A stretch of DNA of 23,525 bases from a virus (Duplodnaviria; Heunggongvirae; Uroviricota; Caudoviricetes), in IMG/VR virus record IMGVR_UViG_2526164619_000010, positions 1 through 23,525 of that record. One strand, given 5' to 3'. Position 1 is the stretch's first letter, and each line of letters begins with the position of its first letter. Position numbers and translations under genes: made by a program. Positions 1,447 to 3,408 of this stretch are shown piece by piece. The notes under the pieces are model-generated. The model made no database searches and was not told the DNA's origin. It was given only the letters and a program-made list of their open reading frames with translations.

Positions 1447-3408
1447 ATGGCATTTAAACACTATGACGTGGTCAGGGCGGCGTCGCCGTCAGACCTTGCG
1501 GAGCGACTGACACAAAAACTGAAGGAGGGGTGGCAGCCATTTGGCAGTCCGGTGGCCATCACGCCTTATACCCTGATGCAGGCCATTGCGGCGGAAGGTG
1601 ATGTCACCACACCTGTGGTGGTGAAGCCGTCGGATGGAGAAGGCGCAGTTATCAGCACCACCAGCAACCCGGAGTATTACTTTGTTGTTGCCCTGGCCGG
1701 GCAGTCAAACGGTATGGCGTATGGTGAAGGGCTTCCGCTGCCGGAGACATATGACCGTCCGGACCCGCGTATTAAACAGCTGGCGCGTCGCAGCACTGTC
1801 ACGCCGGGTGGTGCGTCCTGTAACTACAATGACATTATTCCTGCGGACCACTGCCTGCATGATGTTCAGGATTTGAGTAAGTTTTCACACCCGAAAGCCA
1901 GCGCAGCTCAGTATGGATGCGTGGGGCAGGGATTACATATCGCGAAGAAATTGTTGCCGTTTATTCCGGCGAATGCCGGTATTCTTCTGGTTCCGTGCTG
2001 CCGTGGTGGTTCTGCATTTTTGGCGGGCGATGAAGGTACCTTCAGCGAATCCACCGGCGCAAGCGAGACCTCGGCACGCTGGGGTGTAGATAAGCCACTG
2101 TACAAGGACCTGCTTACCCGTACTCAGGCCGCACTGAAGGCTAACCCTAAAAATATTCTGCTTGCAGTGGTCTGGATGCAGGGCGAGTTTGATTTGAAAC
2201 AGGGTGCATACGCCACTCAGCCGGGGCTGTTTGATTCCATGGTGGAAAAATATCGTTCTGACCTGTCGGAATTCGGAGGTCAGTGTCTCGGGGGCTCTCC
2301 GTCATCGGTTCCCTGGATTTGTGGCGACACGACCTACTACTGGAAACAGACTTATTCTTCGCAATACGATGTGGTGTATGGTGCATACAAGACGAAATCC
2401 GCAAAAAAAATCTTCTTTGTGCCGTTTATGACGGATGAAAACGGGCGAAATGTGGGTACCAACGAGCCGTCAGAAGATCCGGATGTTGCGGATATTGGGT
2501 ATTACGGAGCCGGTGGTCGAACGGACGCCAAAACCTGGACGACGGCCGACCGTAAAACGCATTTTGGATCATGGGCACGTCGTGGGATTATTTCCGACCG
2601 TCTGGCAACGGCGATTCTTGTGCATGCCGGGAGAACCGCTGAATTCATTACCGGAAAACAGCCTGATACGGTGAAGCCCACCGGACCTTCCGGTGAAGGT
2701 ACGGAGAGAGAGCCGGAAGCCCCGGTCAGTAACCGAACCCTGATGAGTCTGCTGGCGTCCGGCGAAGACCTGGCATCACAGGGCTGGCGCTATTATCACA
2801 AACCGGCGAGCGGAGACAATGTTAACAAAAACATTGCTGAAGCGGTAGTCAGTGATGCGGGGGCTACGGGAGGTAAGGCCCTGCAACTGAATAAACCGGA
2901 AAACCACATCTGGTTTCTGGAGCATGATGCAGCCGGACAGGGAGTGGAGTTACTGAAGAAGGGGGGACGTGTGAGCGTACGGTTTAAGTTGCCGGGTTCA
3001 CTGGTGCCGAATCGGTTTGCCCTGGGCATTTACTGGCAGTTGTCGTCCCTGCCGGAGGGAGTGACGCTGGCAGAGGAAGGCAACGACATGCTGATGTCCT
3101 TCTTCCTGCAGACGGATGCGACGAACCTGAACGCGATGTACCACAAGAAGCCGAATGCGAAGCTGGATACGTTCGGGGTCTTTGATAACGGATGGCACAC
3201 ACTGGCTTTTGAGTTTGCCGGAAACAACAGCATTCAGGTGACGCCGGTACTGGATGAGAAACGGGGGACGCCGTTCACACTGGTGAAATCTCCGGCATCA
3301 GGGGCGGCGGACAAACTGCAACTGACAGGCATATCAAAGGCGGCGACATATACGCTGCTGATTGACAGTGTGAAGGTGGAAGTGAACAACGCGGATGCCG
3401 CGGCATGA
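1447..3408 (+). CDS. prophage NanS-p-like sialate O-acetylesterase (N-terminal DUF1737-like region, SGNH/SASA esterase core with GQSNG motif, C-terminal ~200-aa putative carbohydrate-binding domain)
   Basis: 653-aa ORF with RBS GGGAGG at 1437-1442 and ATG at 1447. N-terminus MAFKHYDVVRAASPSDLAERLTQKLKEGWQPFGSPVAI is typical of prophage NanS-p; VVALAGQSNGMAYGEG is the SGNH block-I serine motif. Family assignment from memory of the protein family, not a search. Confidence 0.75.
   Translation: MAFKHYDVVRAASPSDLAERLTQKLKEGWQPFGSPVAITPYTLMQAIAAEGDVTTPVVVKPSDGEGAVISTTSNPEYYFVVALAGQSNGMAYGEGLPLPETYDRPDPRIKQLARRSTVTPGGASCNYNDIIPADHCLHDVQDLSKFSHPKASAAQYGCVGQGLHIAKKLLPFIPANAGILLVPCCRGGSAFLAGDEGTFSESTGASETSARWGVDKPLYKDLLTRTQAALKANPKNILLAVVWMQGEFDLKQGAYATQPGLFDSMVEKYRSDLSEFGGQCLGGSPSSVPWICGDTTYYWKQTYSSQYDVVYGAYKTKSAKKIFFVPFMTDENGRNVGTNEPSEDPDVADIGYYGAGGRTDAKTWTTADRKTHFGSWARRGIISDRLATAILVHAGRTAEFITGKQPDTVKPTGPSGEGTEREPEAPVSNRTLMSLLASGEDLASQGWRYYHKPASGDNVNKNIAEAVVSDAGATGGKALQLNKPENHIWFLEHDAAGQGVELLKKGGRVSVRFKLPGSLVPNRFALGIYWQLSSLPEGVTLAEEGNDMLMSFFLQTDATNLNAMYHKKPNAKLDTFGVFDNGWHTLAFEFAGNNSIQVTPVLDEKRGTPFTLVKSPASGAADKLQLTGISKAATYTLLIDSVKVEVNNADAAA

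What the first reader, a model, noticed from the sequence alone, without database searches (positions are those of the whole stretch)
1447..3408. Intact NanS-p-like sialate O-acetylesterase retained in a decayed prophage
This 653-aa ORF is full length with a good RBS, while the neighbouring essential virion genes (large terminase, portal, tape measure, I) are all broken. That asymmetry suggests selection to keep the esterase as a host-beneficial cargo gene. Prophage NanS-p esterases are known to remove 9-O-acetyl groups from sialic acids. The C-terminal ~200 aa beyond the esterase core looks like a separate carbohydrate-binding module.
Basis: partly seen in the sequence, partly recalled or inferred. 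Interest (0 to 1): 0.55.

Follow-up and report, generated by a model that had tools for sequence, protein, structure and literature searches.

The report
Intact NanS-p esterase in Shigella prophage remnant
The ORF is a full-length copy of a well-known prophage enzyme (NanS-p, which removes O-acetyl groups from sialic acids) in a decayed Shigella flexneri prophage, and its intactness is about what chance predicts, so it is not evidence that the host is keeping it.

Summary
Window 1447-3408 (+) is an uninterrupted 653-aa ORF with a GGGAGG Shine-Dalgarno. IS1 ends 177 bp upstream. Terminase large subunit, portal, tape measure and tail gene I are all broken.

The family call is right. The domains are DUF1737, a SASA/NanS esterase core and DUF6645. 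The core matches E. coli NanS (PDB 3pt5, E=5e-118) and the C-terminus matches the NanS-p C-terminal crystal structure (6yp6, E=9e-61). Ser87 (GQSN), Q245-G-E and His372 are all present. The protein differs by one residue (A309V) from WP_000874454.1 of E. coli O104:H4. The window is identical to Shigella flexneri K-315 contig AKMY01000042.

The selection argument fails. Twelve other phage ORFs are also intact, including the equally long capsid gene. Six point lesions in about 18.2 kb of phage DNA predict 0.65 hits in this gene, so P(none) is about 0.5. Only three substitutions are specific to this lineage (2 synonymous, 1 not).

The gene has also lost its Q antiterminator and late promoter (IS1 junction) and the lysis cassette (IS600). 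It has no signal peptide, and a terminator-like hairpin sits upstream. A 2026 preprint reports that the phi24B homologue decorates the capsid, so "cargo" is itself contested.

Verdict: a known gene, probably enzymatically competent, probably a stranded and poorly expressed passenger.

The parts
1..501 (-). Chromosomal flank (drpB/yedR and its intergenic region); not phage DNA
   Evidence: 100% identical over 1-501 to the drpB locus of many E. coli chromosomes, and present in 4911 of 5426 genomes. The upstream genes in L002 are dcm, vsr, yedA and others.
502..1269 (+). IS1 (768 bp), forming a deletion or rearrangement junction between chromosome and prophage
   Evidence: insA-like ORF at 557-832 and insB' ORF at 751-1254; DDE_Tnp_IS1 in L002. 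The flanking 9-mers differ (CATTTAATC and CAAAACGTG), so there is no target-site duplication.
1270..1446 (+). 177-nt native phage leader retained upstream of nanS-p; contains a terminator-like hairpin (1322-1337 plus a T run) and no good sigma-70 promoter
   Evidence: 1 mismatch in 176 nt against the intact prophage of E. coli cM8a. Terminator-like site CTGCGCAATAGCGCGG+CCTTTTTCAT; no + strand promoter with at least 9 of 12 matches in 1270-1446. The best relaxed candidates reach only 8 of 12. The hairpin is kept in the MFE fold.
1437..1442 (+). Shine-Dalgarno GGGAGG, 4 nt before the ATG
   Evidence: Read directly from the sequence.
1447..3408 (+). nanS-p coding sequence, 653 aa, intact
   Evidence: It differs by one residue (A309V) from WP_000874454.1 of E. 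coli O104:H4 and cM8a.
1453..1596 (+). DUF1737 N-terminal domain (aa 3-50)
   Evidence: Pfam PF08410, E=7.3e-16. The homologous domain of phi24B gp84 was reported to bind capsid hexons (bioRxiv 10.64898/2026.04.10.717836). The window allele has a loop 3 residues shorter and lacks the SISSP motif.
1663..2619 (+). SASA/SGNH esterase core (aa 73-391), homologous to chromosomal NanS (YjhS)
   Evidence: PDB 3pt5, E=5e-118 over aa 73-391. Pfam SASA, 36.2 bits against a 24.8 cut-off.
1699..1710 (+). Block I GQSN (aa 85-88): Gln86 for the oxyanion hole, Ser87 as nucleophile (codon 1705-1707)
   Evidence: Motif position. It aligns to GQSN of 3pt5 and is invariant in the 5-sequence alignment. The role of Gln and Ser in the SASA family is described in PMC9487903.
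2179..2187 (+). Block III QGE (aa 245-247), the SASA-specific motif
   Evidence: The motif definition is in PMC9487903.
2560..2562 (+). His372 codon (block V catalytic base)
   Evidence: Aligns to the His of 'SHF' in 3pt5 and is invariant.
2836..3390 (+). C-terminal DUF6645 / lectin-like jelly-roll domain (aa 464-648)
   Evidence: PDB 6yp6 (NanS-p C-terminal domain), E=9.4e-61. Pfam DUF6645, E=1.2e-43. The fold and the predicted CBM role are from Franke et al. 2020, as cited.
3405..3530 (+). 41-aa ORF overlapping the nanS-p stop codon (ATGA); a conserved small phage ORF of unknown function
   Evidence: phrog_9558, E=1.4e-11. It is annotated at the same position in phage PA2 and in L002.
3543..3674 (+). 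5' fragment (44 of 60 codons) of the DUF1378 gene, cut by IS600
   Evidence: tblastn of reference aa 1-44.
3675..4937 (-). IS600 (IS3 family), replacing about 3.1 kb: rest of DUF1378, DUF826, holin, YdfR, lysozyme, Rz, YlcI and the HNH 5' end
   Evidence: 99.9% identity to annotated IS600. HTH_Tnp_1 and rve domains. The window 3674/4933 junction corresponds to L001 8354/11494.
6041..7680 (+). Large terminase pseudogene (stop at 7217, 19-bp deletion at ~7401)
7746..9668 (+). Intact capsid/prohead-protease fusion gene (640 aa; in-frame 15-bp deletion). It is the same size as nanS-p and equally intact.
9880..11243 (+). Portal pseudogene (stop at 10048, 1-bp deletion at 10428)
14798..17562 (-). 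IS66-family element (ISEc49-like), replacing the 3' end of G, all of T and the 5' end of the tape measure gene
17561..20779 (+). Tape measure pseudogene (first 8 codons lost, stop at 20045)
22562..23136 (+). Tail assembly gene I pseudogene (4-bp deletion at ~22903)

Best explanation
The ORF encodes a NanS-p-type sialate O-acetylesterase. By homology it is an SGNH/SASA-fold serine esterase. Ser87 in GQSN is the nucleophile and His372 is the base, forming a Ser-His dyad without the block V Asp, as in E. coli NanS. Gln86, held by the QGE245-247 motif, forms the inverted oxyanion hole of the SASA family. The enzyme removes O-acetyl groups from Neu5,9Ac2 and related mucin sialic acids, giving Neu5Ac that the core nan pathway can use. 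The C-terminal jelly-roll (aa ~464-648) probably targets it to glycans. The N-terminal DUF1737 may dock it to phage capsids. In intact lambdoid prophages the gene lies between the Q antiterminator/tRNA (or stx) region and the lysis cassette. There it is transcribed with the Q-dependent late operon and reaches its substrate when the cell lyses. In this window the prophage is a remnant in Shigella flexneri K-315. An IS1 junction has removed everything upstream of -177 (Q, late promoter, tRNAs). IS600 has removed the lysis genes. The gene is intact because the remnant is young and a 2-kb target often escapes: 0.65 lesions are expected. It is most likely a still-functional but stranded and weakly expressed or silent passenger, not a demonstrably selected host gene. 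Shown here: ORF integrity, domains, motifs, synteny, lesions, the chance calculation, and the absence of a consensus promoter. Inferred: catalytic activity, low expression, neutrality.
For: Domains and solved homologues come, motifs. The protein is 1 aa from WP_000874454.1 of E. coli O104:H4. A review states that the five NanS-p of an O104:H4 strain and those of EDL933 are active esterases that allow growth on Neu5,9Ac2 (PMC8065619). The native context is Q...tRNA-Ile/Arg/Arg...508 bp...nanS-p...DUF1378, DUF826, holin, lysozyme, Rz. nanS-p is co-induced with stx2a under mitomycin C, and its conserved position suggests control by Q (PMC10462455). The 508 bp upstream in an intact relative holds no promoter candidate better than 8 of 12. 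In the window, the IS1 junction lacks a target duplication and abuts chromosomal drpB. The lysis cassette is replaced by IS600. A terminator-like hairpin lies at 1322-1337. There is no hydrophobic N-terminal segment. On chance: 6 point lesions in 18,229 bp give an expectation of 0.65 and P(0)=0.505. Twelve other intact phage ORFs total 7.7 kb. Only 3 changes are specific to the window branch, 2 synonymous and 1 non-synonymous. Vimr (PMC3658417) already reported nanS paralogues 'invariably associated with prophage remnants', and many partial or broken copies (EDL933: 5 partial, 7 long).
Against: Two IS-associated deletions stop 177 bp upstream and 266 bp downstream of the gene, leaving a tidy 2.4-kb island. 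Selection against deeper deletions would give the same picture. The same IS1-nanS-p-IS600 arrangement is present in at least one other assembly (L003), so it has persisted. The ratio of 1 non-synonymous to 2 synonymous changes is numerically below the neutral expectation, though P is about 0.16. Weak promoters or read-through from IS1 cannot be excluded by consensus scans. No expression or enzyme data exist for this locus.
Confidence: 0.62

Rival explanations
1. Domesticated cargo. The esterase is kept by selection in the Shigella host because it gives access to O-acetylated sialic acids. It would be expressed from a weak native promoter, an IS1-derived promoter or read-through, independently of the dead phage.
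For: NanS-p enzymes give EHEC O157 and O104 a growth advantage on Neu5,9Ac2. The gene is bracketed closely by two IS-linked deletions that both spare it. The arrangement recurs in a second assembly. The ORF, the Shine-Dalgarno and all catalytic motifs are preserved. Two of the three lineage-specific changes are synonymous.
Against: Intactness is not statistically unusual: P(0 lesions) is about 0.5, and a useless 1.92-kb capsid gene and 11 other ORFs are also intact. Q, the late promoter and the tRNAs have been deleted. No promoter with at least 9 of 12 matches was found, and a terminator-like hairpin lies between IS1 and the ATG. The protein has no signal peptide and the lysis genes are gone, so the enzyme would stay in the cytoplasm, whereas the model for NanS places deacetylation in the periplasm. 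Prophage nanS copies are often partial or IS-disrupted elsewhere.
Confidence: 0.2
2. Virion accessory protein. The gene's primary role is for the phage: a capsid-decorating, mucin-targeting esterase anchored through DUF1737, as reported for phi24B gp84. On this reading it is one more structural-module gene of the dead phage, with no role in the remnant.
For: A cryo-EM and proteomics preprint finds gp84 (NanS-p) on phi24B capsids, bound through DUF1737 as hexamers and proteolytically processed. The window protein has DUF1737, with the first 33 residues nearly invariant across alleles. The two DUF1737 loop types separate podoviral (PA2, P13374) from siphoviral lambdoid phages. Many phages share both the window-type D domain and the window-type capsid gene.
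Against: The window allele lacks the phi24B-type anchor loop (3 residues shorter) and the SISSP cleavage motif. The same D-domain type (97% identical) occurs in PhiR5_1, which has an unrelated lambda Nu1/A/W/B/C/D/E head, and in Stx1_9793, which has a lambda-E-like capsid. The domain therefore does not track one capsid family. The evidence is a single preprint on a T=9 podovirus. Growth phenotypes in lysogens are documented independently.
Confidence: 0.15
3. Inactive relic. The ORF is open, but the lineage-specific A309V change or loss of partner functions has abolished activity.
For: A309V is the only non-synonymous change and is derived in this lineage.
Against: Position 309 is variable among active-family alleles (A, V, T), lies outside the GQSN, QGE and His motifs, and the change is conservative.
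Confidence: 0.03

Closest known systems
NanS-p of non-Stx prophages of E. coli O104:H4 and cM8a (RefSeq WP_000874454.1, 'SASA family carbohydrate esterase')
   Same: Both are 653 aa with the same three domains. 652 of 653 residues are identical, DNA identity is 99.7-99.8% over 2,404 bp including the 177-nt leader, and the downstream DUF1378 gene is the same.
   Different: A309V and two or three synonymous changes. In E. coli the gene sits in a prophage that still has Q, the tRNAs and the lysis cassette. Here those have been replaced by IS1 and IS600.
NanS-p of Stx phages (933W L0105/z1466, phi24B vb_24B_21/gp84, PA2, P13374)
   Same: The architecture DUF1737-SASA-DUF6645 is the same, as are the catalytic motifs and the position in the late region upstream of the holin.
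   Different: Overall identity is only about 60-65%. The DUF1737 loop type differs (no GYG insertion, no SISSP), the interdomain linker is longer, and no stx gene lies upstream.
Chromosomal NanS (YjhS) of E. coli, PDB 3pt5
   Same: The esterase core is homologous (E=5e-118 over aa 73-391), with the same GQSN, QGE and His and no block V Asp.
   Different: NanS is a single-domain protein of the NanR-regulated nanCMS operon and is thought to act in the periplasm. The window protein has extra N- and C-terminal domains, no signal peptide, and phage late-operon control.
C-terminal domain of vb_24B_21, PDB 6yp6 (Pfam DUF6645)
   Same: Homologous over aa 464-648 (E=9.4e-61), a lectin-like jelly-roll fold.
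   Different: It is a diverged allele, with a 4-residue deletion and other differences. Carbohydrate binding is predicted but not demonstrated for any member.

Membership tests
NanS-p (prophage sialate O-acetylesterase) | Three-domain architecture: N-terminal DUF1737, central SASA/NanS esterase, C-terminal domain | tested here: met
   Pfam DUF1737 at aa 3-50, SASA at 83-274, DUF6645 at 503-616. PDB 3pt5 covers aa 73-391 and 6yp6 covers 464-648. phrog_143 matches full length.
NanS-p (prophage sialate O-acetylesterase) | Location in the late region of a lambdoid prophage, between Q/tRNA(/stx) and the lysis cassette | tested here: met
   The downstream DUF1378 fragment and the 177-nt leader are syntenic with intact prophages. 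The upstream part was lost at the IS1 junction, so this rests on synteny with relatives.
NanS-p (prophage sialate O-acetylesterase) | Esterase activity on Neu5,9Ac2 or mucin O-acetyl sialic acids | not testable with these tools
   Inferred from being 1 aa away from an O104:H4 allele and from published activity of NanS-p enzymes. I could not verify that this exact allele was among those assayed.
SASA / CE6 branch of SGNH hydrolases | Block I GQSN with nucleophilic Ser and oxyanion Gln | tested here: met
   GQSN at aa 85-88, aligned to 3pt5; defined in PMC9487903.
SASA / CE6 branch of SGNH hydrolases | Block III (H)QGE motif | tested here: met
   MQGE at aa 244-247. As in EcNanS, the residue before QGE is not His (alignment).
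SASA / CE6 branch of SGNH hydrolases | Block V catalytic His (Asp optional; absent in EcNanS) | tested here: met
   His372 aligns with the His of 3pt5. EcNanS lacks the block V Asp.
Carbohydrate-binding module (lectin-like jelly roll, DUF6645) | Homology to the solved jelly-roll domain | tested here: met
   6yp6 E=9.4e-61; DUF6645 E=1.2e-43.
Carbohydrate-binding module (lectin-like jelly roll, DUF6645) | Demonstrated glycan binding | not testable with these tools
   The review states there is no experimental evidence yet for NanS-p.
Capsid decoration protein of the phi24B gp84 type | DUF1737 domain at the N-terminus | tested here: met
Capsid decoration protein of the phi24B gp84 type | Anchor loop with Tyr42 and an SISSP-type cleavage motif after Gly54 | tested here: not met
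   PA2 and P13374 carry ...STAGYGAEFIQPVVSEGSISSP. The window has ...ITPYTLMQAIAAEGDVTTP, which is 3 residues shorter and has no SISSP. A Tyr (Y41) is present, but its equivalence is uncertain.
Capsid decoration protein of the phi24B gp84 type | Cognate T=9 podoviral capsid, with D-domain type tracking capsid type | tested here: not met
   The window head module is a siphoviral S78-protease/capsid fusion. The same D type occurs with lambda-type heads.
Selected (domesticated) prophage gene | Intact significantly more often than neutral decay predicts | tested here: not met
   Expected 0.65 lesions, P(0)=0.505; 12 other intact ORFs.
Selected (domesticated) prophage gene | Excess of synonymous over non-synonymous change since decay | tested here: inconclusive
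   2 synonymous and 1 non-synonymous change on the window branch. The binomial P is about 0.16, assuming 75% non-synonymous sites (arithmetic mine).
Selected (domesticated) prophage gene | A promoter independent of phage late control | tested here: inconclusive
   There is no site with at least 9 of 12 matches on the + strand in 1270-1446, and a terminator-like hairpin lies at 1322-1337. Consensus scans cannot prove absence.

The most novel reading that the evidence does not exclude
In this Shigella flexneri lineage the IS1-nanS-p-IS600 island is a domesticated metabolic gene. It would be expressed from a weak or IS1-dependent promoter and would give a Shigella the ability to de-O-acetylate colonic mucin sialic acids. 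Shigella may lack chromosomal nanS: Vimr 2013 reports nanS-type esterases among the close relatives of E. coli he surveyed only as the prophage copy in S. dysenteriae.
Probability: 0.1. Interest if true: 0.4.

Novelty: already known. Interest (0 to 1): 0.15.

Why it matters
It matters little beyond correct annotation. NanS-p esterases, their three-domain layout, their position downstream of stx/Q and their presence in prophage remnants are all published (Vimr 2013; Nübling 2014; Saile 2016 and 2018; Franke 2020; Pascal 2023). This copy is one residue away from an E. coli O104:H4 protein. The useful lesson is about method. An intact ORF among pseudogenes is not evidence of selection unless the lesion density predicts it should have been hit. 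Here it does not, and an equally long capsid gene survived too. If the gene were shown to be expressed in Shigella, it would be a modest case of prophage-gene domestication relevant to mucus colonisation.

Tried and rejected
1. I tried to read the primary papers on NanS structure and NanS-p activity (Rangarajan 2011 PMC3149194, Rangel 2016 PMC5038012, Saile 2016 PMC5038053, Feuerbaum 2018 PMC7106450). None is held. Catalytic-residue roles and activity claims are therefore taken from reviews.

2. I tested whether the DUF1737 type co-varies with the capsid family, which would support a capsid-docking role for this allele. Two D types separate podoviral from siphoviral phages. The window type, however, occurs with at least three different head modules. 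I rejected this as decisive evidence; it is also confounded by relatedness.

3. I looked for an IS1-end/flank hybrid promoter and a native promoter. Nothing scored better than 8 of 12.

4. dN/dS on the window branch rests on only 3 changes and has no power.

5. I considered the portal 'frameshift' in the reference prophages as a shared lesion. I rejected this, because intact relatives have a 454-aa ORF followed by a 353/407-aa ORF with an ATGA overlap. Only the stop at 10048 and the 1-bp deletion at 10428 count as window lesions.

6. I did not run structure prediction of aa ~450-653. A crystal structure of a homologue (6yp6) matches at E=9e-61, and homologues from loci cannot be submitted as an alignment.

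7. I did not run the 5.8-billion-protein searches, because the family is already identified.
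Full report
**1. The observation**

Window 1447..3408 (+) is an open reading frame of 653 codons starting at ATG. GGGAGG lies 4 nt upstream of the start. The ORF aligns end to end, without gaps, to the 653-aa 'SASA family carbohydrate esterase' annotated in intact E. coli prophages.

IS1 occupies 502-1269 (768 bp).

| Gene | Lesions |
|---|---|
| Large terminase (TerL) | stop at 7217; 19-bp deletion at ~7401 |
| Portal | stop at 10048; 1-bp deletion at 10428 |
| Tape measure | first codons lost to an IS66-family element; stop at 20045 |
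| Tail gene I | 4-bp deletion at ~22903 |

**2. Where the window comes from**

Positions 1-13408 are 100% identical to NCBI contig AKMY01000042.1 of assembly GCA_000268165.1. A published strain table lists that assembly as strain K-315, in its S. flexneri block (Bangladesh; PMC6397287).

Positions 1-501 are chromosomal (drpB/yedR), 100% identical to many E. coli chromosomes. The 9-mers flanking IS1 differ (CATTTAATC and CAAAACGTG). IS1 therefore marks a deletion or rearrangement junction, not a simple insertion.

Phage DNA starts at 1270. The remnant carries three IS elements:
- IS1 at 502-1269.
- IS600 at 3675-4937 (99.9% identity). It replaces about 3.1 kb holding the rest of DUF1378, DUF826, holin, YdfR, lysozyme, Rz, YlcI and the HNH 5' end.
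- An ISEc49-like IS66-family element at 14798-17562. It replaces the 3' end of G, all of T and the start of the tape measure gene.

**3. What the protein is**

Pfam finds DUF1737 (aa 3-50, E=7e-16), SASA (aa 83-274, 36.2 bits against a cut-off of 24.8) and DUF6645 (aa 503-616, E=1e-43).

Against solved structures:
- aa 464-648 match the C-terminal domain of NanS-p (6yp6, E=9.4e-61).

The SASA family is defined by three features (PMC9487903):
- a block I GQSN, with the Ser nucleophile and a Gln in the oxyanion hole;
- a block III (H)QGE motif;
- a block V His. EcNanS lacks the usual block V Asp.

The window protein has GQSN at 85-88 (Ser87), QGE at 245-247 and His372. All align to 3pt5 and are invariant among five alleles.

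The C-terminal domain is a separate module. [quoted passage not shown] A review notes that binding has not been shown.

**4. How close it is to known proteins**

The DNA of 1271-3674 is 99.7-99.8% identical to prophages of E. coli cM8a and several O104:H4 strains. The protein differs from WP_000874454.1 by one residue, A309V. That column is variable (A, V or T) among alleles.

Identity to the Stx-phage NanS-p group (933W/PA2/P13374 type) is only about 60-65%.

Reviews state that NanS-p enzymes of EDL933, and five from an O104:H4 strain, are active esterases that allow growth on Neu5,9Ac2. I could not verify that this exact allele was among those assayed.

**5. Native context and what was lost**

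In intact relatives the gene order is Q antiterminator, tRNA-Ile/Arg/Arg (stx in Stx phages), about 500 bp of spacer, nanS-p, DUF1378, DUF826, holin, lysozyme, Rz. Pascal et al. found nanS-p co-induced with stx2a by mitomycin C and inferred control by Q.

In an intact relative, the 508 bp upstream of nanS-p hold no sigma-70 candidate better than 8 of 12. This is consistent with dependence on the late transcript.

In the window, everything left of -177 is gone. No + strand promoter reaching 9 of 12 matches lies in 1270-1446. A terminator-like hairpin (1322-1337, then CCTTTTTC) sits between IS1 and the ATG.

The protein has no hydrophobic N-terminal segment, and the lysis genes are deleted. If made, it would probably stay in the cytoplasm. 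Vimr's model places NanS deacetylation in the periplasm.

**6. Is intactness evidence of selection?**

No. Twelve other phage ORFs have proper starts and no internal stops, 7.7 kb in total:

- TerS
- the 1.92-kb capsid/protease fusion
- a 73-aa ORF
- the 353-aa ORF after portal
- connector
- head closure
- gp10
- gp17
- major tail
- M
- L
- K

None of these can serve a phage that lacks terminase, portal and tape measure.

The chance calculation:

| Lesions counted | Phage DNA | Expected hits in 1,962 bp | P(none) |
|---|---|---|---|
| 6 point lesions | 18,229 bp | 0.65 | 0.505 |
| 6 point lesions + 3 IS events | 18,229 bp | 0.97 | 0.36 |

I polarised the substitutions with a third allele. The window lineage has three changes in nanS-p: 2346 G>A (synonymous), 2847 G>A (synonymous) and 2372 C>T (A309V). 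The chance of 1 or fewer non-synonymous changes out of 3 under neutrality is about 0.16, so the count is uninformative.

As a rough consistency check (my inference, not a tool result), about 0.15-0.2% neutral divergence over 16 kb would give a handful of nonsense and indel lesions. That is what is seen.

Prophage nanS copies also decay elsewhere:
- Vimr lists 5 partial and 7 long copies in EDL933, and notes nanS paralogues 'invariably associated with prophage remnants'.
- IS-disrupted alleles occur in O157 Stx2a phages.

**7. What can be said for selection**

Both IS-linked deletions stop just short of the gene, 177 bp upstream and 266 bp downstream. The same IS1-nanS-p-IS600 arrangement is present in a second assembly (L003). 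These facts are compatible with selection. They are equally expected if loss of the Q/late-promoter region and of the lysis cassette was itself favoured or neutral and nanS-p simply lies between them.

**8. The 'cargo' premise**

A 2026 preprint reports that the phi24B homologue gp84 is a processed capsid-decorating protein. Its DUF1737 domain binds the central hexons of a T=9 capsid. I checked whether this could apply here.

PA2 and P13374 (podoviruses) carry the phi24B-type loop, with Tyr42, Gly54 and SISSP. The window allele has a loop 3 residues shorter and no SISSP.

Many phages share both the window-type D domain and the window-type capsid gene. However, the same D type occurs in PhiR5_1 (97% identical over 75 aa), which has a true lambda head module. 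It also occurs in Stx1_9793, which has a lambda-E-like capsid.

So the D type separates podoviruses from siphoviruses, but it does not track a capsid family. The decoration role is neither supported nor excluded for this allele.

**9. Verdict**

This is a correctly recognised, full-length member of a well-described family, essentially identical to an E. coli O104:H4 allele, sitting in a Shigella flexneri prophage remnant.

- The enzymatic mechanism is inferred with high confidence from homology.
- The claim that the host keeps it under selection is not supported by the evidence offered or by the tests possible here.
- The most likely state is a still-competent gene stranded without its promoter and release system.
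- Novelty: already known. Interest: low.

Noticed in passing
window 502-1269 and flanks 493-501 / 1270-1278: IS1 has no 9-bp target-site duplication. It joins chromosomal drpB directly to the prophage late region, so the whole left half of the prophage (int to Q and the tRNAs) was lost by an IS1-associated deletion or recombination.
   Followed up: partly
window 9880-12301; L001 16479-18901; L007 13693-16277: In the intact E. coli relatives, PGAP annotates the portal as 'frameshifted'. The DNA in fact holds a 454-aa portal ORF and a 353/407-aa ORF joined by an ATGA overlap. PHROG phrog_2271 ('portal', 859 positions) spans both. This could be a fused or programmed-frameshift portal extension. 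The 353-aa ORF has a sub-threshold CBM_5_12 hit.
   Followed up: partly
window 3405-3530: A 41-aa ORF overlaps the nanS-p stop codon (ATGA). It matches phrog_9558 and is annotated at the same place in phage PA2 and in L002. It is a conserved tiny ORF of unknown function.
   Followed up: partly
window 14798-17562: An ISEc49-like IS66-family element (99.3-99.5% identity to E. coli copies). Its transposase reading frame looks split: a 453-aa ORF plus an overlapping 156-aa ORF. The IS itself may be defective.
   Followed up: no
window 9062-9070: The capsid/protease fusion gene carries a net 15-bp in-frame deletion relative to L001 (640 against 645 aa). The reading frame is preserved.
   Followed up: no
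L013 (PhiR5_1) 16001-17989; L012 (Stx1_9793); L010; L011; L008: There are two DUF1737 loop types. The phi24B/PA2/P13374 type occurs in Sepvirinae podoviruses. The window type occurs in siphoviral lambdoids with at least three different head modules. nanS-p seems to travel with the Q-to-lysis region and not with the head genes.
   Followed up: partly
window 2346, 2372, 2847: All three nanS-p substitutions specific to the window lineage are G>A or C>T transitions.
   Followed up: no
window 3409-3430: A GC-rich hairpin (GCCGCCAGCGGC) immediately follows the nanS-p stop codon. It is scored as terminator-like only for the minus strand (T run on that side). It might stop antisense transcription coming from the IS600 side.
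   Followed up: no
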